From sequence record OZ346175.1: a stretch of DNA of 64,000 nt, one strand, 5' to 3'. Of the stretch, positions 3,759 through 48,570 are shown piece after piece. The notes under the pieces are model-generated. The model searched no databases and was not told the DNA's origin. It saw only the letters and a list, made by a program, of their open reading frames with translations. Position 1 is the first letter of the stretch. Each line of letters begins with the position of its first letter. This stretch comes from a phage. The position numbers were made by a program, and so were the translations under genes.

Positions 3759-4143
3759 ACCAAATACCTGTGCAGCTTCTGTTTTCTAAGAAATACTCAA
3801 CACCGTACATAGCTTTTTGCATCAAATCTTCTTTAAACTGGATACGATGATTTAGCATAGCCTGTACATCAATATCTTCATGGTGCTTCTCTTTAATGTT
3901 TGCAGATTGCAGGAAATACTCTGCAAGAACACGATACTGATAGTCAGTTACTTTATCAGTCATCTCTGTCAAAGACTCTTCAGAGATTGGTTTAAGTAGC
4001 TCACCATTAGCTAGAGCAACACCTTTAACAATCTGGCAAGTGTCTTCTGGAACACCTGATAAGTCCACATTTGGAAGTTCTGTTGCATTAACTGGTAAAT
4101 TCATTGCCATAACCATTGCAGCAGCTAATAAAACCTTTTTCAT
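3748..4143 (-). CDS. hypothetical secreted protein
   Basis: 131 aa with N-terminal signal-peptide-like segment MKKVLLAAAMVMAMNLPVNA. Confidence 0.5.
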   Translation of the reverse strand: MKKVLLAAAMVMAMNLPVNATELPNVDLSGVPEDTCQIVKGVALANGELLKPISEESLTEMTDKVTDYQYRVLAEYFLQSANIKEKHHEDIDVQAMLNHRIQFKEDLMQKAMYGVEYFLENRSCTGIWYGS

Positions 4144-6239: not shown

Positions 6240-6476
6240 TCACTCAATAACCGTAGTGTGTGATTGACCATTTTTGCCATAGCTATAAGATGTTGTTGTT
6301 TGGGAGTTTGGACATCTGACAACAACAATATCTCTGCTTATAGCATCACCATGTAACTTGTATACTCTGCAATCTTGCATCTCTGGTGGGAGGCTGTAAG
6401 AAGCATTTTTATCTTCATAAGAAGGGTTGCAGCCAGATAGAAAAATAACACCAAGCGCAATTACTGATTTCCACAT
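6240..6476 (-). CDS. putative lipoprotein
   Basis: Signal peptide with lipobox-like LSGC (MWKSVIALGVIFLSGC). Confidence 0.5.
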   Translation of the reverse strand: MWKSVIALGVIFLSGCNPSYEDKNASYSLPPEMQDCRVYKLHGDAISRDIVVVRCPNSQTTTSYSYGKNGQSHTTVIE

Positions 6477-6663: not shown

Positions 6664-6891
6664 TCAGAGGTTAATATTAATACGTTCGCCCTTAAGGACT
6701 CCAGTACGGTCCCTTGCAATCTTACCATCAACAATAAGGATATGCGCAGACCTTAAAGAGTCATTATTAAAACCTTTTACGAACTTACTAGGCATCACTA
6801 CAATAAGCATCTCCTGAATCAACTCTGGAGTATAGCAGTTATCATGAAGTTGTTGGATAACGTCTGCAAGTGTCATTTTTGATGTCTCCAA
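6664..6891 (-). CDS. hypothetical protein
   Basis: 75-aa ORF. Confidence 0.4.
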   Translation of the reverse strand: METSKMTLADVIQQLHDNCYTPELIQEMLIVVMPSKFVKGFNNDSLRSAHILIVDGKIARDRTGVLKGERININL

Positions 6892-8228: not shown

Positions 8229-8496
8229 CATCTGGTCAATACACTCGCAAGGTGTACCAGTTCTCTTATGAACTTCTCCGCATTTCTACGGAGTGTCGGA
8301 CTATATCACGTAGTAGTAATACTACCGTTGCACTTGGGAATGGTCATTGGCTTACCACCCTACTCTACTCAGTTCATACGTTAAGTATGCTTTTCGATAG
8401 TCTCTGAACGTTCCTCTTAAGAGGCTTCGCTGCTGATTACCATATCTTTACAGACTTAGGCTTCCAGCAATTCACAACGTTTTACATGCGCCACTG
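8229..8496 (-). mobile_element. group I self-splicing intron (ORF-less) in DNA polymerase gene
   Basis: Minus-strand P (aattgctggaag), Q (aatcagcagcg), R (gttcagagacta) and S (gatatagtcc) elements; exon ends in U pairing with gcgcau guide just inside intron; intron ends in G; splicing restores IYALLFGAGDEK. Confidence 0.85.
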
Positions 8497-10639
8497 ACGC
8501 ATAAATGCCATTTTTGGCTTTCTTACGACCTTTTGTAATCTCGTGGAGAAGTTCCTCATCCTGTGTCTCCCTACAACGAACAATATCTTCTTCCTTGTTC
8601 AGACCAAAGTAAATACTGTTCAGTGTATGCGCATCAGTCCCTGTGTAGACTTCATAGAGGTCGTTCTCAGCATCATAACGAAGATACTTGTCAGTTTCTG
8701 GATTAAGGTGCTTATCAAGATGTTTGCAATAATATCTCCCATCTTCTTGCTTGGTAAATTCTACTGACTCTTTACCTTCAGTTACTGCTTTAGTGAACTC
8801 TTTATCACCCATAAAGTTACACAGTAAAACAAGCTGTGCAGAGTTCTGGTCAACAGAAACAATGTTAGTCCCCTCTTCACAAATCCACACTGCCCTCATA
8901 GGTGCTCCATAGACAGCAGCACCAGACGGTACGTTTACAATACCATATTGTGTCATACGTCCAGTTGAAGTACCAAACACCATTGCACCAGCACTAAGGC
9001 GACCATCAGGACGAATCTGGTTCAACCAACCTTTTTCATCATCCTTTGAGTTCTCAATAGTTCTGCGTCGGTGCATCAAAGTATAGTACTTAGCAATCTT
9101 CTGTCCAAGCTCACCTTCAATCGTATCATAAGATGATTCAGTAAGTTTTGGTGAAGTACGGATTAAGCAAGGCTCAAGCAAATCTGTGTACTTCTTCACA
9201 GACCAGTTATGCTCAATGTACTGTACACCTTCATGTTCAACATAACTCAAACCACACCGCTCAACCATTTCCTGCCACTTAGGATGTTTTGTAATCATCT
9301 TTTTATTGTCTTTGAAACGACAAACTTTGACAGGGCGACCATCTGAATCTTTCTTGTAGTTCCAGTCATCTGGAATCCAACCAACTGATTTCAAGTAGTC
9401 TTTAACAACTGCTACCTGAGTCATATGAGAAACTTCAAACTCAATTGGTGTATATGGTGCATCAATCAAACCTGTGTAGCGACTTGACTCAAGTTCAAAG
9501 TGATTGACAACGTGACTGTTATAGTACTTCACAGTCTTGACTGTTTTTACTGGTTTCCAGTCTTTGCATTTTTTGCCAATCTTTGCATTCAACTCGTTGC
9601 AGATTGCACGAGCATCCTTCATCGCTACAAAACCCTCTTTGTACTCTTCACCAGTTACAGAGTTGGTTGGTGTATAGCAATTTCTCTTTTCAATGTTAAA
9701 AATCTTTGTAGTTGGCTTACCAAATGGCTTGATTTCATATGTCTGCATCTCACCATTACGTACCTGCTGACGATACTTTGTCTTAGGGTACTTGGTAATT
9801 CTTTTCAGTCCATCTGCATGACCAAATGCTTCAACATACTCATTCCAAGCTTTTGCAAACTCTTCTCCAGTGACTTTACCTTTGGTCTTAATAGTTGGAG
9901 GTAGATGTGGTTCAACCTCTGAAGCAAGCTCATTAGTCAACTTGTCAAGCTCCTTTACATGGAACTCCATAAGCTCTTTATCAGCTTTCCAACCATTGAT
10001 AGCTTGTTGACTCATCCAGAAAGATGTTTCTTTAGCTCGCATGTAAGTTTCATAAGTGTCTATGCCACACTTCTTAAGCTTGAGATACTCGTTATCAAGT
10101 GCCCGTTTAGTTTTGGCGTTAATACGGATATCTTCTACAACACGAGTGAAGATTTCTGCATTCCACACACCCCAATGCTCAATCTCTGGCTTACGAACAC
10201 CAACACGAGCACCCCATGCAGCCAAGCCATGAGCACCTTTATAACCCTTTGGAGTTGGTCTATCCATCCACTGAACACGAGACTGGATAAGAGAATCCTG
10301 AAAGAAATTACTCCACGGCTTACACTTTGGATTATCAAAGTTCCATAAATCAGGTGCAATGTGATTAAAAACCCACCAGTCATAACCGAGACCGTTATGG
10401 ATGCAAAGACGTTTTGCCTTTAACGCAAATTCAACACCTTCACGTAAGCCACCCTTAATGTACTTGGTATACTTGTGACCGAGGATAGGTTCATCCGTAA
10501 AGACCCATACAGGTGGCTCTTCATCGTCAGATTTATAGTCTGCGAAAGCCATTACGTGCACTTTAGTGAACTCAAGGAGTAAACCATCAGTTTCTGTATC
10601 ACCAACTAAATGTAAGTTTTTAAAATCTACGTTTTCCAT
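8497..10639 (-). CDS. DNA polymerase, family A (T7 gp5-like), exon 1
   Basis: N-terminal 3'-5' exonuclease motif DTETDG, T7 gp5-like blocks, ends in first half of motif B (RKKAKNGIYA); start at MENVDF with GAGGGAG RBS. Confidence 0.9.
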
Positions 10640-26451: not shown

Positions 26452-26604
26452 AACTTGACAAGGTGGTGTGGGTCTTGGTAGGCTTACATCACCTTTTTAT
26501 TGGGTGTTAGATATGGCAGATAGTATTGTTGGGTTGTTCATAGGTTCTGTCTTACTAGGGTTCTTTTTAGGACTCTCCTATTGTGAGTTGAGAGATAAGT
26601 TAAA

Positions 26605-35335: not shown

Positions 35336-35365
35336 TTGACAAGGGGCTTCAAAGCCCCTTAGAAT
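35336..35365 (+). promoter_or_regulatory. sigma70-type promoter with palindromic spacer
   Basis: TTGACA-N18-TAGAAT; spacer is the inverted repeat aggggcttcaaagcccct. Confidence 0.45.
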
Positions 35366-35409
35366 ATCCTCAAAAAATGATTTATTAACTAACAAGAGAG
35401 AGTAATAAG

Positions 35410-36492
35410 ATGACTACTAAAACTAAAGCACAGATTGACGCAGAAATTTACAAACTGGTTAAAGAAGGTAAGCTGACTAAAACAGCTATTGCACAGAAAT
35501 TTAATACTTCAACCCGTTCAGTCGGTCGTGCTGTAGAGCGTCATGAAGCAATATTAAAAGGGAATAAGAAGGTAACTTCTACACCAGCTACGAAGACTTT
35601 GAAGCAAGTTGCTAAGACCTTTAAAAAGAAAGCTGACAAACCAGTTGAAAAGGTTGTTAAAGATTCTGTACAGAAAGCTCCAGTAAATAAACTGCACGAA
35701 GCTATGCAGAAAGATGACAAGATTGAGTACATGATTACTGGTGACTCTGTAATTATGACTTACGGTTCAGAATCTGAAATTGTTGAGTCTACTCATCCGA
35801 ACTATCAAGAGATTGTAGTTCATGTTGTGAAAGGTGAGTTCAAGAAAGCCTTTGAACTGATGAACATTCGTAAGTCTATCGAAAACTTCACGCAGGGAGC
35901 TATCACAATCAAAGGTGATAAGCTATTCTACGGTGCTGTTGAGATGCGTTCTACTCTGGTTGACCGTATACTTCACATGATGAAAACTGGTGATAAAGGT
36001 TTTGAACGACTTGTAATGTTCTTCGAAAAACTGATGGAAAACCCATCTAAAGATTCTGTAGAACAACTTTGGGGATTCATATCTCACCTTGATGTTGAAA
36101 TTGATGAAGAAGGCTACATCATTGGTTGGAAGAAAGTCTCTACTCGTGAAGGCAAGCTGGTTGACTCCCGCACCTGCAAAGTACCTAATGATTTGGGTAA
36201 CATTGTAGAAATGCCACGTTGGATGGTTGATAATAACCGTAACGTGACTTGCTCTCAAGGTCTTCACGTTGGTGCTTGGGATTATGTTCGTTACTTCTCA
36301 GGTGATACAATTCTGAAGGTTCGTGTCCATCCACGAGACGTTGTATCCGTACCAACTGATTACAACGATATGAAGATGCGTTCGTCTCGTTATGAAGTTG
36401 CAGCAATCGTTGATAATCAACGTAAAGTGCTGAAAGAATGGGATGGCAAGACTGAAGCTTTGCATGACGTAAACGTGAAATCTAATAAGTAA
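35410..36492 (+). CDS. rIIB: rIIB-like protein
   Basis: 360 aa; C-terminal blocks (LFYGAVEMRSTLVDRIL; CSQGLHVG; VHPRDVVSVPTDYNDMKMR) match recalled T4 rIIB. Confidence 0.7.
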   Translation: MTTKTKAQIDAEIYKLVKEGKLTKTAIAQKFNTSTRSVGRAVERHEAILKGNKKVTSTPATKTLKQVAKTFKKKADKPVEKVVKDSVQKAPVNKLHEAMQKDDKIEYMITGDSVIMTYGSESEIVESTHPNYQEIVVHVVKGEFKKAFELMNIRKSIENFTQGAITIKGDKLFYGAVEMRSTLVDRILHMMKTGDKGFERLVMFFEKLMENPSKDSVEQLWGFISHLDVEIDEEGYIIGWKKVSTREGKLVDSRTCKVPNDLGNIVEMPRWMVDNNRNVTCSQGLHVGAWDYVRYFSGDTILKVRVHPRDVVSVPTDYNDMKMRSSRYEVAAIVDNQRKVLKEWDGKTEALHDVNVKSNK

Positions 36493-39837: not shown

Positions 39838-40623
39838 ATGGGTATTGTAAAAATCATCAATGGGGATATCTTCTCAGCATTTGATAAAGGTAAGTTTGAT
39901 ATTATTGGTCACGGTTGTAACTGTATGAACTTAATGGGTGCAGGTATCGCTGATAAGATTTCTAAACTTTACCCAAAAGCATATGAGACCGATACAGAAG
40001 TTTATCTGTATGCAGGTGGTATAAGTCACAAACCCTGTGAAAATTTGCTAGGCAATTTCTCTGTAGCACGTTTAAAACAAGGCCGTATAGCCAATCTTTA
40101 CACTCAGCTTAAGACTGGTAAAGATGCCCGATACAGTGATTTAGAGTCATCTTTGAAGCAACTTAACAGATACTGTGAAGTTAATCAGTTGAAGAAAGTT
40201 GGCTTACCTATGATTGGTGCAGGTATCGGCGGACTAGACCCTCAAGCCGTCACAGTTATCATTAATCAGGTGATGAAGAGTGTAGATGTTTATCTGTATG
40301 TCTACGAAGGAGAGATGTACCACAAGTTACGCTCAGGTTGGAAGAATTACTGTGAACCAGAATACTTTGCAGGTGTAGTAGTGTTCATAGACGACACAGT
40401 TACCCTCTTCAGACGAAGAAAAGGTAAGGTACATCAAAGTAACCCTCCGGTTGAAAAGATGTCTCTAAGTAACGCTCTAGTTACCCACCTGTCGAAGAGC
40501 AATCACAGGATTGCAGTAACATTTGGCAGTGATGCAGATACATATATCTATGCAAGAACTGATGAGGATATCGAGTTAATCTTCTCTTCACCAGAGCTTA
40601 CCTTCTTAGACGCAAAGAACTAA
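39838..40623 (+). CDS. macro-domain (ADP-ribose binding/processing) protein
   Basis: Macro-like motifs IIGHGCNCMNLMGAGIA and GLPMIGAGIGGLD in N-terminal 150 aa, plus about 110-aa C-terminal extension. Confidence 0.55.
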   Translation: MGIVKIINGDIFSAFDKGKFDIIGHGCNCMNLMGAGIADKISKLYPKAYETDTEVYLYAGGISHKPCENLLGNFSVARLKQGRIANLYTQLKTGKDARYSDLESSLKQLNRYCEVNQLKKVGLPMIGAGIGGLDPQAVTVIINQVMKSVDVYLYVYEGEMYHKLRSGWKNYCEPEYFAGVVVFIDDTVTLFRRRKGKVHQSNPPVEKMSLSNALVTHLSKSNHRIAVTFGSDADTYIYARTDEDIELIFSSPELTFLDAKN

Positions 40624-40692
40624 GAAACTTCGTAGTAAATTCACAATAGACTAAGCCTTTCTTATCTGGTAAATTTTTCAGGTAAGGAGGGC

Positions 40693-40880
40693 TTTTTCAT
40701 TTCAGATTTGTGCAGGTAGAGTTCTGTAGAGAAATCTATAGAGAAAATTTTGAACTCCAAAGAGAAAATTCATTCTCAAACTGTGCAGGTAATCTCCAAA
40801 GAGCTTTTTCATTTTCAAAACGTGCAGACCCCGCTCAGGTCGGGCAAGAAAAATCATTTTAGAATTGTGCAGGTAGGTGG
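40693..40880. repeat. iteron-like direct repeats (4-5 copies)
   Basis: Repeated unit tttcatt(t)tca(a/g)a-N2-3-gtgcaggta near 40693, 40765, 40803, 40848, with an extra gtgcaggtgg at 40878. Confidence 0.6.
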
Positions 40881-41051
40881 GTGCAGGTGGGGATGTCGCC
40901 ATTTCTCACAAGGCTACCACATCTGGAAATAAAAGTCAACAGAAAAATTTGTAGCGGATTGAAAAATAATTCTTGATTGTAGTTCTGTTTTGTGGTAGTC
41001 GTGCGCGCCCGTTTCATTCCATTTTTGCCAAAAATATTTTAAAAATTTTTA

Positions 41052-41080
41052 TTGACTCTTTGAACGGGTTTTTATAGTAT
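41052..41080 (+). promoter_or_regulatory. sigma70-type promoter
   Basis: TTGACT-N17-TAGTAT in AT-rich region upstream of first small ORF. Confidence 0.5.
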
Positions 41081-41133
41081 TTGCATCAGACGGGGCGACA
41101 AGCTCACTACCTTAAACTAGGAGAATCTAAAAA

Positions 41134-41340
41134 ATGCTTTACAGTCGTGAATTGATGGTTACAACCAACGTTAATACAAATGTAAAACGCTTTTACATGC
41201 AAATTTGTGGCGTATGGTCTAGAATATCAGAAGCTGACTATTGCAACTATGTAGAAACAGCTATAAACTCTAATTGCTACCTTACAAGAAATACTAAGAA
41301 GTTTACAAGGCAAACAGCGATTTACTATTACGATAAATAA
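41134..41340 (+). CDS. hypothetical small protein
   Basis: 68 aa; preceded by conserved leader taaactaggaga-N8-ATG. Confidence 0.45.
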   Translation: MLYSRELMVTTNVNTNVKRFYMQICGVWSRISEADYCNYVETAINSNCYLTRNTKKFTRQTAIYYYDK

Positions 41341-41428
41341 AAAGTACTTTACAAGGGGCTTATAGTTCGATAAAGTAAGCCCCAGATAAAGAGCTTTACT
41401 AACTAACCTTAAACTAGGAGATTCAAAA
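41341..41428 (+). repeat. intergenic cassette family A, copy 1
   Basis: aaagtactttacaaggggctta-loop-taagcccc-agataaagagctttac...cttaaactaggagattcaaaaATG. Confidence 0.7.
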
Positions 41429-41812
41429 ATGGCTTATCGTGCACCGAAATTCATCAACAAAGACAACTTTCGCAAAGTACTGGAGAAGTCACTTGATGAA
41501 AATTTTAAAGGTAACATTATCGTTGTTCACGCATTCAATTTTAAGTATGATGTAAACGGGAATAGAATCAACCATTACACGGCAACCATGTTAGATGGTA
41601 CACTTTCAAGTGAAAAAGCCGTACTAAATGCACTGGCAGGACGTGGAAAGGTATTAGTAAGATGTGATAAGAGACGTTATCAGGGCGGCGCATATGGTTA
41701 TAATGATGCTGTTTACCATCTTGAAAATATGGGCTATCAAGTAGAAAAAGCTGGAGCATCACAAATCATCGGCAGCGATGGTTATGTAACAATCTTCAAA
41801 ATTAACGAATAA
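41429..41812 (+). CDS. hypothetical protein
   Basis: 127 aa; cassette-preceded. Confidence 0.5.
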   Translation: MAYRAPKFINKDNFRKVLEKSLDENFKGNIIVVHAFNFKYDVNGNRINHYTATMLDGTLSSEKAVLNALAGRGKVLVRCDKRRYQGGAYGYNDAVYHLENMGYQVEKAGASQIIGSDGYVTIFKINE

Positions 41813-41897
41813 AGTACTTTACAAGGGGCTTAAAAGTTGATATCTTAAGCCCCAGATAAAGAGCTTTACCACTAAATCCTAAACTGGAGATTCTAAA
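41811..41897 (+). repeat. intergenic cassette family A, copy 2
   Basis: Same cassette; stem ggggcttaa/ttaagcccc with different loop. Confidence 0.7.
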
Positions 41898-42410
41898 ATG
41901 AAAACTGTAGACGCTACCTTTGAAGTTGTAAAAGAAAAATTCACCATTATTTATGAAGCTGTCAATTGCTTTGAAGCAAGCCATAATCTTGATAATTGGA
42001 AGTTTACAGATGACCATCAAGGCGGTGTGACGATTAAAAATCCTAACTGTCAGCGTAATGATTTTAAATATGCAATCCCTTTACATTACAGCCTTAAACA
42101 GCTTTCTAGTGACTATGCAAAACAAGGCCGGGAAAATCCATCAAAAGAGGCTTACGCAAGCTTACAGAAAGAACTAGAAAGAGATTTAGAGGCTTCAGAG
42201 TACAACCTTGCCGCGAAAGTTGTGGATGCAAACGGTAACACGGTTTTAGAAAGTTTTTATCTTGGTTATGCTTTCGATTGGTGCTATCGTGACGGTGAGG
42301 ATTTAGAAGATAGACTAAAAGAAGAGGTGAGCAATTCAGACGCAGAGGCTGAAGTATTAGAACGTTTGGAAGCATTAAAAGATTCAGTGATGAATATCTT
42401 TAAGAACTAA
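41898..42410 (+). CDS. hypothetical protein
   Basis: 170 aa; cassette-preceded; acidic C-terminus. Confidence 0.5.
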   Translation: MKTVDATFEVVKEKFTIIYEAVNCFEASHNLDNWKFTDDHQGGVTIKNPNCQRNDFKYAIPLHYSLKQLSSDYAKQGRENPSKEAYASLQKELERDLEASEYNLAAKVVDANGNTVLESFYLGYAFDWCYRDGEDLEDRLKEEVSNSDAEAEVLERLEALKDSVMNIFKN

Positions 42411-42500
42411 ATAGACCTCTTTACACGGGGCTAACAAGCTGATATGATAGCCCCAGATAAAGAGCTTTACCACTCAATCCTTAAACTAGGAGACTCAAAA
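42411..42500 (+). repeat. intergenic cassette family A, copy 3
   Basis: Stem ggggcta/tagcccc with compensatory change relative to copies 1 and 2. Confidence 0.65.
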
Positions 42501-42797
42501 ATGAAATTATCGAATAAAGTTCGTGAAAATCTAAGCAAGTTACTCAACAAAATTGATTTTATCGAGACATCAAGAAATAGCCATGATGTTATGGAATGGT
42601 TACACGGAAAAATAAAAGGTCATCGTGTAGTGATTTGCTTATGGAATAGTTGCAGGGAGTATAAAAACCCTGTATTGCAAGTCAATATTTACGATGATAC
42701 TTTTAAAAGTCCAGTAAAGTCTAAAAGTGACTTATTAGAAGCCTATGAGATAACTGTAAACGGCAAAGTGTCACGTAAAGAGGAAACACCATGTTAA
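42501..42797 (+). CDS. hypothetical protein
   Basis: ORF 42444..42797 trimmed to Met (MKLSNKV) placed after cassette RBS. Confidence 0.5.
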   Translation: MKLSNKVRENLSKLLNKIDFIETSRNSHDVMEWLHGKIKGHRVVICLWNSCREYKNPVLQVNIYDDTFKSPVKSKSDLLEAYEITVNGKVSRKEETPC

Positions 42798-43123
42798 TGA
42801 CTGGTATCACTGCAATCATTGCCATTCTCGCGCTGTATAAGGCATATAAAGCCTATAATCTAGCAAATAAGGCAATCACACAGCAGGTTAGCAATAACCT
42901 CGTAGAGAGCTTTCTAGGGCGTCTCAGTGATGAGCAAATAAAGCGGCTAGAGATGAGCTTCAGATATAAAGCGAAAACCTATCAGATAAGTGACATCTTC
43001 AAAGATGATTTTCAGTTAGTCGATGATTATAATTCTCTGATAAATGCTTTAAATATCAGTGACTTAAAAGACTACTACGCTGTAATTGTTCAAGAATTGA
43101 GCAAACGGAAACAAAATGTTTGA
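42791..43123 (+). CDS. hypothetical protein
   Basis: 110 aa; hydrophobic N-terminus (ITAIIAILALY). Confidence 0.45.
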   Translation: MLMTGITAIIAILALYKAYKAYNLANKAITQQVSNNLVESFLGRLSDEQIKRLEMSFRYKAKTYQISDIFKDDFQLVDDYNSLINALNISDLKDYYAVIVQELSKRKQNV

Positions 43124-43149
43124 CACTGGTTTTTAGATAGGTTAAATTA

Positions 43150-43212
43150 CACATCAACGGGGAGGGAATGACCTTCCCCACTAAATAAAGTCCTAAACTG
43201 GAGATTCAAAAA
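43150..43212 (+). repeat. intergenic cassette family B, copy 1
   Basis: atcaacggggagggaatgaccttccccactaaataaagtcctaaactggagattcaaaaaATG. Confidence 0.65.
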
Positions 43213-43380
43213 ATGTTTTGTGCAGGTGATAAAGTTGTCTGGAATGATATAGATGACGGTTTATGTACGAAAGTTGTTGTTATCTTAGAAATTGATTATA
43301 TCACTGGTGTTGCAACTGTAGCAGATAATGATATAATCTTTGACGTCTTAATTAGTGAACTGTCAAAATAAAATCCTTAA
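43213..43380 (+). CDS. hypothetical small protein
   Basis: 55-aa ORF (MFCAGDKVVWNDIDDG...) after family B cassette; below ORF-track size cut-off. Confidence 0.4.
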
Positions 43381-43396
43381 ACTAGGAGCTTTTAAA

Positions 43397-43669
43397 ATGT
43401 ATACTACTAACAACGGTCGCACCTTAAACGTAACCCTTCGTCACTATGTGAACGGTGTAATGCACTTCGAGGATTTACAAGCCGAACAACATATCTTAGA
43501 TTGGCAACTTGCAGGACTACAAAAAACTGCTACAGGATACGGGAAAAAGATTCCAACCAGTTGGAAAGTATACTACGAAGGCCGTTTGCGCAGAATTTAT
43601 CAGGATGTGCAAAGCAATAGCGCATCGAGTTACATCATAGTAAAAGGTAAAAAGCTGCATTTAGTGTAA
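43397..43669 (+). CDS. hypothetical protein
   Basis: ORF 43355..43669 trimmed to Met (MYTTNNGR) after taaactaggag leader. Confidence 0.45.
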   Translation: MYTTNNGRTLNVTLRHYVNGVMHFEDLQAEQHILDWQLAGLQKTATGYGKKIPTSWKVYYEGRLRRIYQDVQSNSASSYIIVKGKKLHLV

Positions 43670-43755
43670 AGTACTTTACAAGGGGCTTATAGTTCGATAA
43701 AGTAAGCCCCAGATAAAGAGCTTTACCACTAAATCCTAAATTGGAGAACTTAAAA
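43668..43755 (+). repeat. intergenic cassette family A, copy 4
   Basis: Near-identical to copy 1. Confidence 0.7.
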
Positions 43756-44160
43756 ATGGCTATTAATAACCGTGAGTTATCAATCTTAAAAGCACGTTTG
43801 ACCGTTAACCGGATTAATGTTATCACGTCATCAGCGCCTGATGAGACATTGCACAACATTATTGGGAAGATTCAAAGCGTTATCTTAGACGTTGAAAACG
43901 TAAAAAACTCATTGACTGACGTTGCAGCAGGTATCACGCTAGACGGTGCACAATATGAAATGACCGACATGTTAGGCAAATCTAAGGTAATGAATAAAGA
44001 GCTTGATTTGAAAATGTTTCGGTTTGCTGTTAAAGTGTGGCTATCTGTCGAGTATGACGCTAACTTTGCAATCGCTGACTTTTTCGCCACTTGGTTACAA
44101 CGTAATTTGACAAATCATGATTTTCGTGGTATCTGTGATGCAATTTATGCAGAACTCTAA
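43756..44160 (+). CDS. hypothetical protein
   Basis: ORF 43741..44160 trimmed to Met (MAINNRE) after cassette. Confidence 0.5.
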   Translation: MAINNRELSILKARLTVNRINVITSSAPDETLHNIIGKIQSVILDVENVKNSLTDVAAGITLDGAQYEMTDMLGKSKVMNKELDLKMFRFAVKVWLSVEYDANFAIADFFATWLQRNLTNHDFRGICDAIYAEL

Positions 44161-44194
44161 AAATTTATCTTGATTTTGGTTTTTAAAACAAGTA

Positions 44195-44261
44195 AATTAC
44201 TAATCAACGGGAGGTAATAGCCTCCCCACTAAACAAAGTCCTTAAACTAGGAGATTCAAAA
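44195..44261 (+). repeat. intergenic cassette family B, copy 2
   Basis: Variant stem gggagg-taatag-cctccc (compensatory relative to copy 1). Confidence 0.65.
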
Positions 44262-44465
44262 ATGGCTATTATTAACGGTTTAACCATTGAAACTACACAC
44301 ATCAAAGATATTAAAGTCGGTGATGTAGTTCTCTTTCACGGCGTAGAAAAAACCGTCACGGCGAAAGATATTACAGAGGACTCCTTCATGGGTAGGTCAC
44401 TCTTCGGTGATTCTTATTGCTTAGGTTACCGTGCAGTTTTAAAAGTTGTAAAAAATAACCGATAA
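44262..44465 (+). CDS. hypothetical small protein
   Basis: 67 aa; cassette-preceded. Confidence 0.45.
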   Translation: MAIINGLTIETTHIKDIKVGDVVLFHGVEKTVTAKDITEDSFMGRSLFGDSYCLGYRAVLKVVKNNR

Positions 44466-44550
44466 AGTACTTTACAAGGGGCTTATAGTTCGATAAAGTA
44501 AGCCCCAGATAAAGAGCTTTACCACTAAATCCTAAACTGGAGATTCTAAA
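44462..44550 (+). repeat. intergenic cassette family A, copy 5
   Basis: Near-identical to copy 1. Confidence 0.7.
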
Positions 44551-45093
44551 ATGAAATGCTTTCACGGTACTACCCAAGAAAATTTCCTCAACCTGATTAA
44601 TAACGGTGACAAGCCATCAGGTGCATGGAATTGTTCGGATATGGACGGCAATTTTTACGTGTACCCAGAAAATAAAATCTATGGCGACGATGAGGAAGAG
44701 ATAATCTCTGAAGGTATCCAGCAAGCGTTAGGTAATGCCACTATTACGGCCGCTTTCCAGATGAAAACCCAAAATATTGTTATCTTAGAACTTGATATCC
44801 CAGAGGATGACCTAAATGACGATTATTCTTGTGATAATATGTCTGGCGTAGCAAGTTTTACAGAATACTTCGATTTAAATTGGATTAAAAAGGTTTACGT
44901 AACAGAGTTTAACGCTATGTATTCGCCTTTTTGTCTTCCTTCATTGGATAACCCAAATTTAAATTATCTTGATGAGTCTCTGGAGCTTCTTGCTAAAAGT
45001 GTCCAACAGTCGGGCAGTATTCAGGTTTTTTGTGACATCATGGACACACTAACGGGAAACATCGCAGAAGAGGATTTAAAGAGCTTTTTCTAA
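44551..45093 (+). CDS. hypothetical acidic protein
   Basis: 180 aa, Asp/Glu-rich; cassette-preceded. Confidence 0.5.
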   Translation: MKCFHGTTQENFLNLINNGDKPSGAWNCSDMDGNFYVYPENKIYGDDEEEIISEGIQQALGNATITAAFQMKTQNIVILELDIPEDDLNDDYSCDNMSGVASFTEYFDLNWIKKVYVTEFNAMYSPFCLPSLDNPNLNYLDESLELLAKSVQQSGSIQVFCDIMDTLTGNIAEEDLKSFF

Positions 45094-45159
45094 AAACCTA
45101 TGCAATCGCCTTATAAACACTGATTAGCCCCTCACAGGGGCTTTTAAGAGGCTTAAATC

Positions 45160-45393
45160 ATGCTTACAACCGTTTATCTTATCCTTTCTATTTGTAATGG
45201 TCATTCATGTGATTTTAAAGGGCTTGAGGAGTTTACAGGAAGTAAAGAAAATGCTGTTCAGGTCTGTCAGATAGCAAGGCAAGACTACCCCGCCAGTGAT
45301 GACATACAATGTTACTTTAAGACAGAAGATGAAGATGGTATCTATTTCGATAGTGTAGACGGTCAATATGAAATAATTATAGAAAAAGACTAG
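45160..45393 (+). CDS. hypothetical small protein
   Basis: 77 aa; preceded by small hairpin gcccctcacaggggc. Confidence 0.4.
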   Translation: MLTTVYLILSICNGHSCDFKGLEEFTGSKENAVQVCQIARQDYPASDDIQCYFKTEDEDGIYFDSVDGQYEIIIEKD

Positions 45394-45409
45394 ACAAGCC
45401 TGATAAAAA

Positions 45410-45483
45410 TCTGTAAATTACTAATCAACGGGGAGGGAATGACCTTCCCCACTAAACAAAATCCTAAACTGGAGATTTAAAAA
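45410..45483 (+). repeat. intergenic cassette family B, copy 3
   Basis: ctgtaaattactaatcaacggggagggaatgaccttcccc...ctaaactggagatttaaaaaATG. Confidence 0.65.
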
Positions 45484-45825
45484 ATGGCTTATGTAACCGT
45501 AATTACTGATAAAGAGGGTTCATCTTGGTCAACTCAGGTTAGTGATAAGATGTCGCCTATGCAGTGCCTAAAATACTTTGAACAGTGGAACAAAGGCGAG
45601 GACACAAGCCCCTTTCAAGTGATGAAGATTATCCATGTAGACAATGAAGGGAAGAAAACGACTTTAAACAGTGAGTTCTATGCAACCCGATTTGAAACGA
45701 GATGTAAAACGATGAAGTTATTACGTGAATCCGGTTATGCCCATATCGCCGCGTTAATCTGGGATGACCTGCTAAAAAGTCAGCGTATCAGCTATGTAAA
45801 ACCTGAAAAAATATTCATCAGTTAA
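45484..45825 (+). CDS. hypothetical protein
   Basis: 113 aa; cassette-preceded. Confidence 0.5.
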   Translation: MAYVTVITDKEGSSWSTQVSDKMSPMQCLKYFEQWNKGEDTSPFQVMKIIHVDNEGKKTTLNSEFYATRFETRCKTMKLLRESGYAHIAALIWDDLLKSQRISYVKPEKIFIS

Positions 45826-45857
45826 TCAATAACTTACAAAAAACTTTCAAAAAAGTA

Positions 45858-45886
45858 TTGACAACGCCCCTTGACATTGGTAGATT
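45858..45886 (+). promoter_or_regulatory. sigma70-type promoter
   Basis: TTGACA-N17-TAGATT. Confidence 0.45.
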
Positions 45887-45984
45887 TGTTCGAGGGGGTT
45901 TATCTAAAAGGGATTAACTTAAAAGATTCTTTATAGATAAACTTAAAAAAATTGCTTGCAATCAGATATCAAAACAAGTAAATT

Positions 45985-46046
45985 ACTAATCAACGGGATG
46001 TAATAGCCTCCCCACTAAACAAAGTCCTTAAACTAGGAGATTCAAA
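45985..46046 (+). repeat. intergenic cassette family B, copy 4
   Basis: Same as copy 2 with one loop substitution. Confidence 0.65.
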
Positions 46047-46577
46047 ATGAACAAATTTCAAGCTATCAACTACATTCGCTCAAATGCTGTAATGTCTAAG
46101 CCTGTTAAAGATACCTATGAATTTCGCTGCAATGGGGTACACTTTGCAACCATCACTAAATCAGAAAACGGGGCTTATTACGTTCATCGTCGTAATGTTG
46201 CAACCGTTGTAGTCTCTCACTTTATGCAAGCTGTAGCAGAGTTATTACCGCTATTCTTAGGGATTTACTTGGATGAGTGTAAAAACGTTCACAACCACGT
46301 TAAAAACCTTTTAAACGGTTATAAAATGGCTTATGAACGTTCTATCAAGTCCTTAAACAAGTTCTATAAAGCCCCTGTAAATACTGTTTCAATGGCCTAC
46401 GCTGCAAATGGTGAAAGAGTAAACCTATCCAATGTGGAAGATATCGAGCTTTACGACCATCGGCCTAACGGTTACTCTCAGACACTCGGTGAAGGTTTAA
46501 CGTTCAATATCAAGAACTTAGAAAAAACTTTAAAAGATATTGAAAAAGATATTGACGAGACAATCAAAAATCTGTAA
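46047..46577 (+). CDS. hypothetical protein
   Basis: 176 aa; cassette-preceded. Confidence 0.5.
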   Translation: MNKFQAINYIRSNAVMSKPVKDTYEFRCNGVHFATITKSENGAYYVHRRNVATVVVSHFMQAVAELLPLFLGIYLDECKNVHNHVKNLLNGYKMAYERSIKSLNKFYKAPVNTVSMAYAANGERVNLSNVEDIELYDHRPNGYSQTLGEGLTFNIKNLEKTLKDIEKDIDETIKNL

Positions 46578-46645
46578 ATTGTCAATCAACGGGGAGGGAA
46601 TGACCTTCCCCCCTAAATAAAATCCTTAAACTAGGAGATTCAAAA
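46575..46645 (+). repeat. intergenic cassette family B, copy 5
   Basis: ctgtaaattgtcaatcaacggggagggaatgaccttcccc... Confidence 0.65.
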
Positions 46646-46894
46646 ATGGCAACTATCCGCGCAACTGTTAACGAATTTGGCTTCTACTCTCTGGATGTTA
46701 AATTTGACCTTGTAGGCACTGACAACGCCTTTGAAATGGTGAAAGGTCTTATCAGTCAGACCATCAAGGACTATAATCCTTCTGATGAGTTCTGGAAAGA
46801 AACAAAACAGGAAGTTCTCAAAGAGGGTTATTCTTATCACTATTGGGGTGAAAAAATTGTCTCTCTGTACTACGACAAAGAAGGCACTAACTAA
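46646..46894 (+). CDS. hypothetical protein
   Basis: 82 aa; last gene of rightward block. Confidence 0.5.
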   Translation: MATIRATVNEFGFYSLDVKFDLVGTDNAFEMVKGLISQTIKDYNPSDEFWKETKQEVLKEGYSYHYWGEKIVSLYYDKEGTN

Positions 46895-46932
46895 ACGCCG
46901 CAACGGGGCTAAATAGCCCCAGATACCTTTAC

Positions 46933-46955
46933 AGCCCCTTAAATGGGGCTTTTTT
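46933..46955 (+). terminator. rho-independent terminator
   Basis: agcccctt-aaat-ggggct hairpin followed by TTTTTT. Confidence 0.6.
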
Positions 46956-46965
46956 ACGTCTTATC

Positions 46966-48570
46966 AAACCCCTTATACAACCCTTTCCCTTTCCTTTCCT
47001 TTCCTTTCCAGAATCTTATCAGACCTTAAAAAGCAATAACTTTACAGCCTTTTACTAAGTCAATTAATTGGCCTTATTAATAAGCCCTTAAACATAAGCC
47101 AATAACCCCAGAAAGGGGGCAACCCATTTAAACGCCATATAAAGCCCTATAACGGCCTTTTTAACCTAACTTAAGGGATTGCATTACCTCACCCTTAAAA
47201 GCCCTTTATAAAGCTTCACAGAGCCTTAAAAGAATCTTATAAGGGTGTAAGCTTTATTATCTCGTTAGCTATCTTGTGAACTACTAAACAACCCCCTTGA
47301 TAGTAACTGAAAAGTATGTTATAGGGGCTTTAAAGTTACTTTGAAGTAGCTTAAAAGTTACGTAAATGCTAGCCCCCTTAACATTTTCTTAACAATTTCT
47401 TAACAAACTCTACATAGTTATGCTTGTTAGGGACTTGTTAGCCCCTTGTTAAATCTCTGTTACAACCATGTAAAAGCCTTGTAAGAGTCTTTGACATAGC
47501 CTTTAAAGCCCCTGTAAAGCCCTATAAAGAGCTTTCTACATAGTTGGGGTGTAATTACTAGGAAGAGGCTTAAAAGAGCTTACAAGGAGCTATAGAGAGC
47601 TTTTAAGAGGTATGTTAAGAGAATCACTAAGAGGGAAAGGGAACGATAAGAAAAGAGATAGTGACCATGTAATAGCTTGTTAAAAAGGTTAAACACTTGT
47701 TAGGAACTTGTTAATTGTCTTAACAAAATAACCCTTTAAAATTAACTTGTTAGCTCTTGTTAGTCATCTGTTAAGCATCTGTAAAGACTATTCAGCACTT
47801 GTTAATTGGTATTGTTACCAATCCCTAGAAAACTGTTAAGCCCTTGTTAGTTCTGTTAAGAAACTGTTAAGACCTTTGAAGAGTTGTTAAGAAGATGTGA
47901 GAGCTGTTAAGAGATTGTTAAGGATATTTTAAAATTTTGCAAAGTACTTGTAAGGGAGTTGTTAAGGGCTACCAAGCAGATATACATCCTAATCAGATAT
48001 TTTTCAGTTCCTTCAAAGACCCTAAAAAATGACTTGATAGTCCTATTTTATAAAAATTTTAAGATTCTGAATAATTACCTAGACAGTCTTTTAAAAATAC
48101 AGGTAATAACAGGCTTATAAGATACCTTGTTAGTACCGTGTTAGACCTTGTGAGATAAGGTCTGTAAAGATATTCCTGTTAAGTTTGTTAAAACAGTCTA
48201 TATAGAGGCTTAGTAATACCTAGTGAACACCTATAGAGAGTCACATAGCTAACCTAGAGATTAAGAGGTGTATAGGAGCTTCTAAGAGTGTGTAGAGAGA
48301 TGATTAAGGTGATTGTATAGGTTGTTTAGAAGGCTTGTTAGAAGAGTGTTTAGAGGGCTATTTAGAAGGGCTATACAGAGGGCTATTAAGACCACTAGAT
48401 AGTTACTAAGATACTATATAGTACTATATAACTATATAGAGAGTAAGATTAAGAAGGTTGTTAAGGAGGATAGATACTTTGTTCACATATGATGGTGGCC
48501 CAGAGGTTGGGACAACCGATAAAATTTTATAAAAATTAAAAAGCCCCCAATTAAGGAGGCTCTTAAGATA
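46966..48570. repeat. ORF-free repeat-dense region between convergent transcription units
   Basis: No ORF of 60 aa or more in any frame; (CCTTT)n tract near 46980-47010; more than 20 copies of (c)ttgttag/(c)tgttaag around 47395-47930; gggctat(t/a)(t/c)aga(a/g)g and ctatata repeats around 48300-48450. Confidence 0.7.

What the first reader, a model, noticed from the sequence alone, without database searches (positions are those of the whole stretch)
41100..46650. Hyperplastic block of 14 small ORFs, each preceded by one of two conserved hairpin+leader+RBS cassette families
Family A (5 copies: 41341, 41811, 42411, 43668, 44462) is aaagtactttacaa-ggggctta-loop-taagcccc-agataaagagctttaccactaaatcctaaactggagattcaaaaATG. 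Family B (5 copies: 43150, 44195, 45410, 45985, 46575) is ...ctaatcaacggggaggg-loop-ccttcccc-actaaacaaagtcctaaactggagattcaaaaATG. Stems differ between copies by compensatory changes (ggggctta/taagcccc versus ggggcta/tagcccc; ggggaggg...ccttcccc versus gggagg...cctccc) while loops vary. In family A a TTTACA lies 17 nt upstream of a TA-rich hexamer inside the loop, so the inverted repeat would flank a -10 element. The layout resembles promoter-stem-loop cassettes reported to shuffle small genes in T4-type phages; the small proteins are uncharacterised and could be host-takeover or anti-defence factors.
Basis: seen in the sequence. Interest (0 to 1): 0.7.

Follow-up and report, generated by a model that had tools for sequence, protein, structure and literature searches.

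The report
Promoter-hairpin cassettes between small phage genes
In this Felix O1-type phage, ten near-identical ~90-base spacers, each with a promoter-like site, an RNA hairpin and a standard ribosome-binding leader, sit between small early genes exactly where related phages have gained, lost or swapped those genes, a design so far described only in T4-type phages.

Summary
The window is a Felixounavirus (Felix O1-like myovirus). Five family-A and five family-B cassettes lie at the stated coordinates and nowhere else in the 64 kb. In the complete genome of the close relative finno they also occur only in this block. Ten of the 14 ORFs, not all, are preceded by A or B.

Family B is a sigma-70-type promoter (TTGACA-like, N17, TAAATT) followed by a hairpin 2-4 nt after the predicted start. 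Family A has TTTACA-N17-TAnnnT, with the spacer and the -10 inside a hairpin. [quoted passage not shown]

Across 68 distinct copies from four genera, 96.8% of cells pair, with compensatory changes and G.U far outnumbering A.C. This points to a sense-strand RNA structure.

In nine genomes, all 23 indel junctions fall in cassette or leader-bearing intergenic DNA or within 13 nt of it. Hairpin and leader variants also reassort at orthologous sites.

The architecture matches the PeSL cassettes of T4-type phages. In Felix O1 and wV8 these repeats were only listed as direct repeats. Promoter, terminator or processing activity remains untested, and the proteins remain of unknown function. Verdict: a new member of a known kind.

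The parts
40653..40694 (+). Intrinsic terminator closing the upstream unit (t13 of Felix O1); upstream boundary of the block
   Evidence: Terminator scan: 17-pair stem followed by TTTTCATTT. Same sequence as Felix O1 t13 in PMC3185647 Table 2.
41052..41133 (+). First promoter of the block (TTGACT-N17-TAGTAT) plus the shared leader and SD, upstream of ORF1
   Evidence: Promoter scan; leader motif CCTTAAACTAGGAG at 41110.
41338..41428 (+). Family A cassette 1: -35 at 41348-41353, -10 TAAAGT at 41371-41376, three-tier hairpin about 41341-41397, type 2 leader
   Evidence: MFE -20.7 kcal/mol, z -4.0.
41810..41897 (+). Family A cassette 2: -35 at 41818-41823, TG-extended -10 TATCTT at 41841-41846, hairpin 41810-41868, type 1 leader
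   Evidence: MFE -21.1 kcal/mol, z -4.45.
42408..42500 (+). Family A cassette 3 (7-bp upper stem): -35 at 42420-42425, TG-extended -10 TATGAT at 42443-42448, type 2 leader
   Evidence: MFE -21.5 kcal/mol, z -5.1.
43667..43755 (+). Family A cassette 4: -35 at 43675-43680, -10 TAAAGT at 43698-43703, type 1 leader
44463..44550 (+). Family A cassette 5: -35 at 44471-44476, -10 TAAAGT at 44494-44499, type 1 leader
43120..43212 (+). Family B cassette 1: -35 TTGACA at 43120-43125 (contains the TGA stop of ORF5), -10 TAAATT at 43143-43148, hairpin 43159-43179, type 1 leader
44170..44261 (+). Family B cassette 2: TTGATT at 44170-44175, TAAATT at 44193-44198, hairpin about 44209-44227, type 2 leader
45391..45483 (+). 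Family B cassette 3: TAGACA at 45391-45396 (contains the TAG stop of ORF11), TAAATT at 45414-45419, hairpin 45430-45450, type 1 leader
45956..46046 (+). Family B cassette 4: TTGCAA at 45956-45961, TAAATT at 45979-45984, weakened hairpin about 45995-46013 (one U.C mismatch, z only -1.4), type 2 leader
46552..46645 (+). Family B cassette 5: TTGACG at 46552-46557, TAAATT at 46575-46580 (contains the TAA stop of ORF13), hairpin 46591-46611, type 2 leader
43369..43396 (+). Leader-only spacer (type 2 leader and SD, no promoter or hairpin) between ORF6 and ORF7
   Evidence: Where ORF6 is absent (Felix O1, wV8, AYO145A, Bas63, Alf5), ORF7 sits directly behind the B cassette.
41134..46894 (+). Fourteen small ORFs (52-180 aa): 41134-41340, 41429-41812, 41898-42410, 42501-42797, 42791-43123, 43213-43371, 43397-43669, 43756-44160, 44262-44465, 44551-45093, 45160-45393, 45484-45825, 46047-46577, 46646-46894
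   Evidence: ORF list. No Pfam match. For the first ten ORFs, the only ones scanned against PHROGs, nine match families of unknown function and one has no match.
45125..45147 (+). Weak terminator-like hairpin (GCCCCTcacAGGGGCTTTT) after ORF10; the only gene junction in the block with a T-run
   Evidence: Annotated as a rho-independent terminator in wV8.
46905..46956 (+). End of block: an A-type upper stem with a tiny loop (GGGGCTAaaTAGCCCCAGATA), then CTTTACA, then the true terminator GCCCCttaaatGGGGCTTTTTT (t23 of Felix O1)
   Evidence: PMC3185647 Table 2.

Best explanation
The ten elements are portable expression cassettes of the PeSL type. Each packs three things into the roughly 90 nt between one stop codon and the next ATG: a host sigma-70 promoter, a G+C-rich stem-loop that acts in the sense-strand RNA, and a standard unstructured leader with a strong SD.

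Family B (inferred). RNA polymerase starts about 7-9 nt after TAAATT, so the hairpin sits 2-4 nt from the 5' end of the mRNA. That is the geometry of a 5'-terminal stabiliser hairpin.

Family A (inferred). The promoter (TTTACA-N17-TAnnnT) lies inside the hairpin, and transcripts would start at the conserved AGAUAAAG just 3' of the upper stem. RNA reading through from upstream folds the whole 60-nt, 19-pair, three-tier hairpin. This hairpin would insulate neighbouring cistrons, either as an attenuator or 3'-end barrier or as an RNase III-type processing site.

Recombination role. All cassettes are co-oriented, about 90 bp long and nearly identical. They therefore also give homologous recombination a place to delete, insert or swap whole genes while every gene stays correctly expressed. 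This keeps the block hyperplastic.

Shown here: the repeats, their confinement to the block, the conserved promoter geometry, sense-strand base-pair covariation, and indel junctions and variant reassortment within the cassettes. Inferred: promoter activity, start sites, what the hairpins do to RNA, and that recombination rather than selection alone places the junctions.
For: Repeats and confinement.

Family B promoter. In 111 distinct copies, a -35 hexamer (TTGCAA 33, TTGACA 32, TAGACA 15, TTGACG 15, TTGATT 10) lies exactly 17 nt before TAAATT (92) or TAAAGT (14). The hairpin starts at the same nucleotide in 77 of 79 distinct leaders, although its sequence and length (4-9 bp) vary.

Family A promoter geometry. 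In 143 distinct copies, TAnnnT lies 17 nt (136 copies) or 18 nt (7 copies) after an invariant TTTACA. TG is at -15/-14 in 68 copies. The spacer stays at 17 nt whether the stem is 7, 8 or 9 bp. Within the loop only T-12, A-11 and T-7 are well conserved. The Erwinia phage phiEa104 keeps TTTACA-N17-TAGTAT/TAATCT although its stem has changed.

RNA structure. The 19-pair structure has 96.8% of cells paired, against 31-57% when the partners are slid. No shuffle out of 500 reaches the observed covariation score. Pair 7-59 is GC:50/UA:11, pair 21-46 is GC:61/UA:6, and pair 23-44 is UG:36/CG:30. Non-Watson-Crick cells are G.U 108 against A.C 6. The MFE fold reproduces the structure at about -21 kcal/mol, z -4 to -5.

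Shuffling. All 23 junctions (at least 9 distinct events) have both ends in cassette or leader-bearing intergenic DNA or within 13 nt of it, although the inter-ORF spacers make up only 20% of the block. Where the junction is an insertion in the relative, the flanks overlap by 63-102 nt, which is the cassette itself. At a single orthologous site, such as upstream of g10, all four combinations of hairpin variant and leader type occur. The same gene sits behind A, B or leader-only depending on its neighbour.

Match to PeSL architecture, for which promoter and terminator activity were shown by lacZ fusions in RB49/phi1: PMC2839356 section 14.
Against: - No transcript ends have been mapped for any Felixounavirus in the searchable literature.
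- Family A -10 hexamers are weak (4-5 of 6) and sit in a G+C-rich inverted repeat.
- The TTTAC of the -35 also pairs in the middle stem, so its conservation is not independent evidence for a promoter.
- No cassette hairpin is followed by a T-run, and the terminator scan finds none at the cassettes. Classical intrinsic termination is therefore not predicted.
- Junctions at gene boundaries are partly expected from survivorship, because only rearrangements that keep genes intact are seen.
- Sequences in the covariation counts are related by descent and by copying, so counts of sequences overstate the number of independent events.
- Felix O1 RT-PCR timing does not separate A-fed from B-fed genes.
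Confidence: 0.7

Rival explanations
1. The elements are purely RNA-level and family A has no promoter. The block would be transcribed from 41052 and the family B promoters as polycistronic RNA. The three-tier family A hairpins would be RNase III-type processing sites or 3'-exonuclease barriers that cut the RNA into separately stable mRNAs, as at the T7 early RNase III sites.
For: - The hairpin has 19 pairs in three tiers with a 3x3 internal loop, which is the length and shape class of T7 early RNase III sites (established knowledge of the T7 R0.3-R1.3 sites).
- Lower-stem covariation (GC:50/UA:11) can only matter in RNA that reads through from upstream.
- The G.U versus A.C asymmetry is 108 to 6.
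- TTTAC conservation is explained by pairing.
- Family A -10 hexamers are weak.
Against: - An RNA hairpin alone does not explain why the TTTACA-to-TAnnnT distance stays at 17 nt while stem and loop lengths change.
- It does not explain why only the -12, -11 and -7 positions of the loop are conserved.
- It does not explain why TG precedes the hexamer in about half of the copies.
- The unpaired CA of TTTACA is invariant, while the next base varies freely.
- The two readings are not exclusive.
Confidence: 0.2
2. The inverted repeats are DNA operators for a dimeric phage or host regulator that switches the early promoters off or on.
For: The palindromes overlap the promoter core (family A) or the initial transcribed region (family B). 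The phage encodes at least one annotated transcriptional regulator elsewhere (finno_91).
Against: - Both arms change together (GGGG/CCCC to GGTG/CACC), which preserves pairing rather than a recognised sequence.
- G.T is tolerated on one strand only.
- The distance between half-sites varies (11-14 nt in A, 4-8 nt in B), as does stem length.
- The two families have unrelated arms.
Confidence: 0.04
3. The hairpins are simply intrinsic terminators that end each gene's transcript.
For: They are G+C-rich stems placed right after stop codons. The PeSL stem-loop of RB49 lowered lacZ read-through about as much as rrnB T1 (PMC2839356).
Against: No T-run follows any of the ten hairpins (AGATAAAG after family A, ACTAAAC after family B), and the scan calls none of them. 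True terminators with T-runs exist at the block edges and at 45125. In family B the hairpin lies downstream of the promoter it would have to insulate.
Confidence: 0.04
4. The cassettes are sites for a dedicated, structure-specific recombination system acting on folded single-stranded DNA, like integron attC sites, rather than substrates of general homologous recombination.
For: They are about 60-nt imperfect palindromes with conserved unpaired bases between promoter-poor small ORFs. The strand asymmetry (G.T against A.C) would fit a folded + strand of DNA as well as it fits RNA.
Against: No integrase or other site-specific recombinase is annotated in the finno genome. Junctions show 63-102 nt of continuous homology rather than a fixed crossover point, and hairpin and leader parts reassort independently. 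Sequence conservation, not only structure, is very high.
Confidence: 0.02

Closest known systems
PeSL (promoter-early stem-loop) cassettes of T4-type phages RB49/phi1, T4/PST and KVP40/nt-1 (Arbiol et al. 2010, PMC2839356; Comeau et al. 2014, PMC4122927)
   Same: [quoted passage not shown]
- Sigma-70-like -35/N17/-10.
- A GGGG...CCCC stem-loop with G-T pairs, placed between -35 and -10, overlapping the -10, or just after the -10.
- An SD plus ATG at the 3' end.
- Clustering among small genes of unknown function.
- Indels and replacements between close relatives bounded by the repeats.
   Different: - The phage lineage is different (Ounavirinae), and blastn finds no similarity to T4-type phages.
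- There are two sharply conserved families instead of a loose motif.
- The family A stem-loop extends to a three-tier hairpin that pairs the -35 region with the first 15 transcribed bases, and it shows covariation.
- No T-run follows the stems.
- All cassettes share one leader that exists in two forms.
- Promoter and terminator activity and mini-circles have not been tested here.
RNase III processing sites of the T7 early region (R0.3-R1.3)
   Same: Intercistronic irregular hairpins of about 20 pairs, with an internal loop, between small early genes transcribed by host RNA polymerase. In T7, cleavage leaves a 3' hairpin on the upstream mRNA.
   Different: There is no sequence similarity and no cleavage data. 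The T7 sites contain no promoter. Here the internal loop coincides with a predicted start site.
5'-terminal stabiliser hairpins (e.g. the ompA 5' UTR; established knowledge that a stem-loop within a few nucleotides of the 5' end slows RNase E-dependent decay)
   Same: The family B hairpin begins at a fixed position 2-4 nt from the predicted 5' end. Its position is conserved although its sequence varies.
   Different: The start site is only predicted, and no half-life data exist.
Direct repeats listed for Felix O1 (Whichard et al. 2010, PMC3185647) and DR_1 to DR_9 in the wV8 GenBank record
   Same: These are the same sequences. The 57-bp repeat CTTTACATGGGGCTTAAAAGTCTGTAAAGTAAGCCCCAGATAAAGAGCTTTACCACT is family A, and the 39-bp repeat TTGACACTGG...TAAATTACACATCAAC is the family B promoter.
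   Different: They are reported only as repeats, with no promoter, hairpin, leader or shuffling interpretation. Felix O1's listed putative promoters do not include them.
Integron gene cassettes with attC sites
   Same: Arrays of small ORFs separated by imperfect palindromes of about 60 nt; gene-by-gene gain and loss.
   Different: There is no integrase. The spacers are conserved in sequence and carry their own promoters and ribosome-binding sites. Junctions show extended homology.

Membership tests
PeSL cassettes | [quoted passage not shown] | tested here: met
   The family A repeat begins at or within 2 nt of the TAA of the upstream ORF and ends at the ATG (88-93 nt). Family B is 91-94 nt, and in three copies the stop codon lies inside a promoter hexamer.
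PeSL cassettes | Sigma-70-like -35 and -10 hexamers with about 17-nt spacing | tested here: met
   Family B: TTGACA-like, N17, TAAATT in 111 distinct copies. Family A: TTTACA, N17/18, TAnnnT in 143 of 143 distinct copies. This is sequence evidence only.
PeSL cassettes | G+C-rich stem-loop (GGGG...CCCC, with G-T pairs) inside or next to the promoter | tested here: met
   The positions correspond to the 'between -35 and -10 / overlapping -10' and 'downstream of -10' subclasses of PMC2839356.
PeSL cassettes | Shine-Dalgarno sequence and start codon at the 3' end | tested here: met
   GGAG or AGGAG lies 8-9 nt before the ATG in all ten cassettes.
PeSL cassettes | Concentrated in hyperplastic regions of small, dispensable ORFs | tested here: met
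   All copies lie in a single block in the window and in the whole finno genome. Gene content ranges from 9 to 16 ORFs in nine genomes. Bas63 genes of this region have mixed essentiality (preprint 10.1101/2024.10.10.617714).
PeSL cassettes | Indels and replacements between close relatives bounded by the motif | tested here: met
   All 23 junctions fall in cassette or leader DNA or within 13 nt of it. At insertion junctions the flanks overlap by 63-102 nt.
PeSL cassettes | Demonstrated promoter and terminator/attenuator activity | not testable with these tools
   This needs reporter fusions or transcript mapping. No such data were found for Felixounavirus.
PeSL cassettes | Excision of cassette-flanked genes as mini-circles | not testable with these tools
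   This needs inverse PCR on infected cells or virions.
PeSL cassettes | Host phage is a T4-type myovirus, or the motif is homologous in sequence to T4-type PeSLs | tested here: not met
   The phage belongs to the Ounavirinae. blastn of both cassettes hits almost only records named as Ounavirinae-type enterobacterial or Erwinia phages, plus single records named Staphylococcus and Campylobacter and two more not itemised. The membership claimed is of the kind, not of the homologous family.
Intrinsic (rho-independent) terminator | G+C-rich hairpin followed directly by a T-run | tested here: not met
   The scan finds no terminator at any cassette. The tails are AGATAAAG (A) and ACTAAAC (B).
RNase III processing site (T7-early type) | Irregular hairpin of about two helical turns with an internal loop, in an intercistronic position | tested here: met
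   Family A has 8 + 5 + 6 pairs with a 3x3 internal loop and a 1x1 mismatch. Family B (4-9 pairs) is too short.
RNase III processing site (T7-early type) | Cleavage by RNase III at a defined position | not testable with these tools
   This needs in vitro cleavage, or comparison of rnc+ and rnc- hosts.
Rfam families | Match to a curated covariance model | tested here: not met
   There are only two sub-threshold chance hits in 40500-47200.

The most novel reading that the evidence does not exclude
Family A may be a doubly coded element. The same 60 nt would read in DNA as a sigma-70 promoter. In read-through RNA it would fold into a covarying three-tier hairpin whose 3' internal loop (AGA) is an RNase III-type cleavage site. 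Initiation and processing would then produce the same 5' end (AGAUAAAG...). Every ORF, wherever recombination drops it, would receive an identical monocistronic mRNA regardless of upstream transcription. Family B would reach a similar end with a 5'-terminal stabiliser hairpin, giving two mRNA-stability classes within one early block.
Probability: 0.2. Interest if true: 0.7.

Novelty: new member of a known kind. Interest (0 to 1): 0.5.

Why it matters
This would show that promoter-stem-loop cassettes as vehicles of modular gene shuffling are not peculiar to T4-type phages. They would have arisen, or been retained, in an unrelated and therapeutically used group: Felix O1-like phages of E. coli, Salmonella, Shigella, Citrobacter and Erwinia.

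It gives a concrete reading for repeats that have sat uninterpreted in the Felix O1 paper and the wV8 record since 2009-2010. It supplies about 250 genomes' worth of natural variation, with real base-pair covariation, for studying how such cassettes work.

Practically, the cassettes mark safe insertion points and ready-made expression signals for engineering these phages. They also delimit a pool of about 17 or more interchangeable small early genes that are candidates for host-takeover or anti-defence functions.

Tried and rejected
- Literature searches for transcript mapping or promoter studies in Felix O1-like phages found nothing useful. The phiEa21-4 genome paper is not held, and the wV8 paper does not mention the repeats.
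- Rfam gave no family.
- Protein function. No Pfam match for any of the 14 ORFs. For the first ten ORFs, PHROGs gave only unknown-function families and no match for ORF6. Homologues of the 180-aa ORF10 are confined to Felix O1-like phages. Its AlphaFold model is poor (pLDDT 55) and has no significant PDB fold match. The published hint of an RNA 2'-phosphotransferase-like domain in Bas63 gp107 could therefore not be checked.
- The idea that the block lies next to the physical genome end was dropped. The UAB_Phi87 record, from a phage whose terminal repeats were determined experimentally, starts in the tRNA region, assuming that record opens at the physical end.
- The DNA-operator, plain-terminator and attC-like readings were considered and ranked low for the reasons given under the rival explanations.
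- A first fixed-length pattern for family A matched only the 7-bp-stem copy. The shorter core pattern was used instead.

Full report
**What the window is.** Megablast of 41000-47000 finds 257 phage records. All the best ones are Felix O1-like myoviruses (Felixounavirus: finno, skuden, JohannRWettstein = Bas63, wV8, AYO145A, Felix O1) at 87-94% identity. The block lies between two intrinsic terminators, 40653-40694 and 46933-46950. These are t13 and t23 of Felix O1 (PMC3185647). It sits at the end of the long rightward unit that carries replication and nucleotide-metabolism genes.

**The observation.**
- The family A core CCCCAGATAAAGAGCTTTAC occurs five times exactly, and the family B pattern five times. 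Both have 0.00 matches expected in shuffles. All copies are on the + strand, within 41.3-46.6 kb, and nowhere else in the 64 kb.
- In the complete genome of finno, all 6 A copies, 6 B copies and 11 leader motifs lie in the homologous block only.
- There are 14 ORFs of 52-180 aa, but only ten follow an A or B cassette.
- The exceptions are these. ORF1 follows a separate promoter (TTGACT-N17-TAGTAT, 41052-41080) plus the shared leader. ORF5 overlaps ORF4. ORF7 has the leader only. ORF11 follows a weak terminator-like hairpin.

**Anatomy of family B.**
In the window the -35 is TTGACA, TTGATT, TAGACA, TTGCAA or TTGACG, followed by exactly 17 nt and then TAAATT.
- In 111 distinct copies collected from IMG/VR contigs and GenBank phages, the same geometry holds. 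The -35 is TTGCAA (33), TTGACA (32), TAGACA (15), TTGACG (15) or TTGATT (10). The -10 is TAAATT (92) or TAAAGT (14).
- The hairpin begins at the same nucleotide, the first G after ATCAAC, in 77 of 79 distinct leaders. Its sequence and length still vary, from 4 to 9 pairs and including 41 G.U pairs.
- With a start 7-9 nt after the -10, the hairpin would lie 2-4 nt from the 5' end of the RNA. This step is an inference.
- In three window copies the upstream stop codon lies inside a promoter hexamer: TGA in TTGACA, TAG in TAGACA, and TAA in TAAATT.

**Anatomy of family A.**
- TTTACA is followed 17 nt later by TAAAGT, TATCTT or TATGAT. The last T of this hexamer is the first base of the 3' arm.
- In 143 distinct copies, TAnnnT lies 17 nt (136 copies) or 18 nt (7 copies) after an invariant TTTACA, and TG precedes it in 68 copies.
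- The 17-nt spacer is kept whether the upper stem has 7, 8 or 9 pairs. The one-base difference in total length is taken up between the -10 and the conserved AGATAAAG.
- Per-column information shows that within the loop only the positions matching -12, -11 and -7 are well conserved. The base after TTTACA is free.
RNA folding gives an upper stem of 8-9 pairs, a 3x3 internal loop (CAN/AGA), a middle stem CUUUA/UAAAG, a 1x1 mismatch and a lower stem of 6 pairs. The whole runs from the stop codon of the upstream gene to about 15 nt past the predicted start. Its energy is about -21 kcal/mol, z -4 to -5.

**Is the pairing real, and on which strand?**
- On an alignment of 68 distinct family A cores, including Erwinia phage copies, the 19-pair structure has 96.8% of cells paired. 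The figure is 31-57% when the partners are slid by 1-3 columns. No shuffle out of 500 reaches the observed covariation score.
- Pair 7-59 is GC in 50 sequences and UA in 11. Pair 21-46 is GC in 61 and UA in 6; the latter are the Erwinia-type copies, GGTG...CACC. Pair 23-44 is UG in 36 and CG in 30.
- Among non-Watson-Crick cells, G.U outnumbers A.C by 108 to 6. A duplex-DNA palindrome or a dimeric protein site predicts no such asymmetry. Pairing in the + strand, meaning the sense RNA or less likely the + DNA strand, does.
- Caveat: the copies are related by descent and by copying, so these are counts of sequences, not of events.
- No Rfam family matches.

**The shared leader.** Both families, and the two cassette-less leaders at 41110 and 43375, end in the same A/C-rich leader and SD. 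The leader exists in only two forms, CCT-AAAyT-GGAG and CCTT-AAAyT-AGGAG. There are 215 and 145 distinct contexts respectively and no hybrids. The added U and A would form one more pair of a small anti-SD:SD hairpin. However, two linked alleles are weak evidence for structure. Both leader forms combine with both hairpin families.

**Shuffling.**
- Gene-family maps for the window and eight relatives show 9 to 16 genes per block, drawn from 17 families.
- blastn chains give 23 junctions, representing at least nine distinct insertions, deletions or replacements. Both ends of each fall in cassette or leader-bearing intergenic DNA or within 13 nt of it. The inter-ORF spacers make up only 20% of the block.
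- Where a relative carries an extra gene, the two flanking alignments overlap by 63-102 nt in window coordinates. That overlap is the cassette itself.
- The cassette in front of a gene depends on its neighbour. Gene 12 follows B in the window and A in wV8. Gene 2 follows A here and a promoter/B-type leader in wV8 and AYO145A. Gene 7 has a bare leader here and a B cassette where gene 6 is absent.
- At one orthologous site, upstream of gene 10, all four combinations of hairpin variant and leader form occur among close relatives. This points to exchange inside the cassettes, not only selection for intact genes.
- Between genera, phiEa104 and PMBT37 carry homologues of six or seven of the genes at 27-50% identity in a different order. 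The cassette core remains 77-80% identical in nucleotides.

**Comparison with what is known.**
- Whichard et al. listed the family A 57-mer and the family B promoter 39-mer of Felix O1 simply as direct repeats. Neither is among their putative promoters.
- The wV8 record annotates them as DR_1 to DR_9, and its paper does not discuss them.
- The PeSLs of RB49/phi1 are defined as follows: upstream stop codon, AT-rich stretch, sigma-70 hexamers, a GGGG...CCCC stem-loop with G-T pairs most often between -35 and -10 or overlapping the -10 (sometimes downstream of it), then SD and ATG. They showed promoter and terminator activity in lacZ fusions and form mini-circles.
- Families A and B fit this architecture feature by feature. 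The differences are as follows:
  - the phage lineage, with no blastn similarity to T4-type phages;
  - two tightly conserved families rather than a loose motif;
  - the extended, covarying three-tier hairpin;
  - the absence of T-runs after the stems;
  - the single shared leader.
- I therefore file this as a member of the PeSL kind in a new lineage, not as a homologue.

**Mechanism.** The best-supported reading (confidence about 0.7) is a composite cassette: a host-type promoter, a sense-RNA hairpin and a standard translation leader, which doubles as portable homology for recombination. What the hairpins do is the least certain part. Classical termination is not predicted. For family B, a 5'-terminal stabiliser fits the fixed position. 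For family A, the lower stems can only form in read-through RNA. Their covariation therefore argues for a role in insulating or processing polycistronic RNA. The size and shape resemble T7 early RNase III sites, and the predicted promoter start coincides with the 3' internal loop. This is a resemblance drawn from established knowledge, not a test.

**Proteins.** None of the 14 ORFs has a Pfam match. Nine of the first ten ORFs, the only ones scanned against PHROGs, fall in families of unknown function. ORF10 (44551-45093) equals Bas63 gp107. A preprint reports that this gene is more needed in strain S17-1 and faintly resembles the NAD-binding domain of RNA 2'-phosphotransferase. My model of it was too poor to test this.

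**Verdict.** The finding is ordinary in kind but new for this lineage, with unusually clean comparative evidence. Interest is 0.5.

Noticed in passing
window 40694-40872: Four copies of a ~22-nt motif (TTTTCATTTnnnAnnTGTGCAG) lie between terminator t13 and the block's first promoter. The Erwinia phage phiEa104 has a similar four-copy array at the same place (L133 ~1760-1900). It could be a regulator-binding array controlling entry into the block.
   Followed up: partly
window 46950-48570: A 1.6-kb stretch has no ORFs longer than 53 aa (mechanical ORF list) and holds 12 of the window's 15 CTTGTTA and 16 of its 59 TGTTAA, many in tandem or inverted pairs. It is conserved at 87-94% in 255 phage records and annotated only as 'repeat_region' in some. 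It looks iteron-like, but its function is unknown.
   Followed up: partly
window 39838-40623: The 261-aa protein just upstream of the block, called 'phosphatase' in GenBank records, has a Pfam Macro (ADP-ribose-binding/processing) domain, E 6.5e-8. A polynucleotide kinase gene lies a few kb away in relatives.
   Followed up: no
window 35337-35372; 26455-26500; 7125 region (- strand): Other promoter-with-hairpin composites exist outside the block. Examples are TTGACA-aGGGGCTTcaaAGCCCCt-TAGAAT upstream of the ORF at 35410, TTGACA followed by a long hairpin and TTTTT at 26455, and TTGACA-AGGTg...tACCTT on the minus strand. Embedding a stem-loop right after the -35 seems to be a general habit of this genome.
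   Followed up: partly
window 41110-41133, 43375-43396 and the 3' part of all ten cassettes: The leader occurs in only two forms, CCT-AAAyT-GGAG and CCTT-AAAyT-AGGAG. There are 215 and 145 distinct contexts and no hybrids. The paired U/A insertion would add one pair to an anti-SD:SD mini-hairpin.
   Followed up: partly
window 43121-43123, 45391-45393, 46575-46577: Stop codons of ORF5, ORF11 and ORF13 lie inside the -35 or -10 hexamers of the next family B promoter (TGA in TTGACA, TAG in TAGACA, TAA in TAAATT). The TAA of the ORFs before family A forms the foot of the hairpin.
   Followed up: yes
window 46905-46956: The block ends with what looks like a rearranged family A cassette: the A-type upper stem with a 2-4-nt loop and no -10, then AGATAC, then CTTTACA, then the true terminator.
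   Followed up: partly
window 45826-45955: The unusually long (220 nt) spacer before ORF13 holds an extra promoter-like site (two overlapping TTGACA, N17, TAGATT) inside a CCCCT...AGGGG inverted repeat, upstream of family B cassette 4. That cassette's own hairpin is weakened by a mismatch.
   Followed up: no
L133 (phiEa104) 3799-3941, 6286-6400, 6690-6767, 8287-8656: The Erwinia phages have further cassette families not seen in the window. One is TTGCAAAGGGGTTAcggttatgagacTATAACCCC; another is GAGGGGTTAAAATCCCCTC plus a leader ending in AAAGGAATCAAAA. The homologue of g4 lies after that of g10, so gene order as well as gene content differs between genera.
   Followed up: partly
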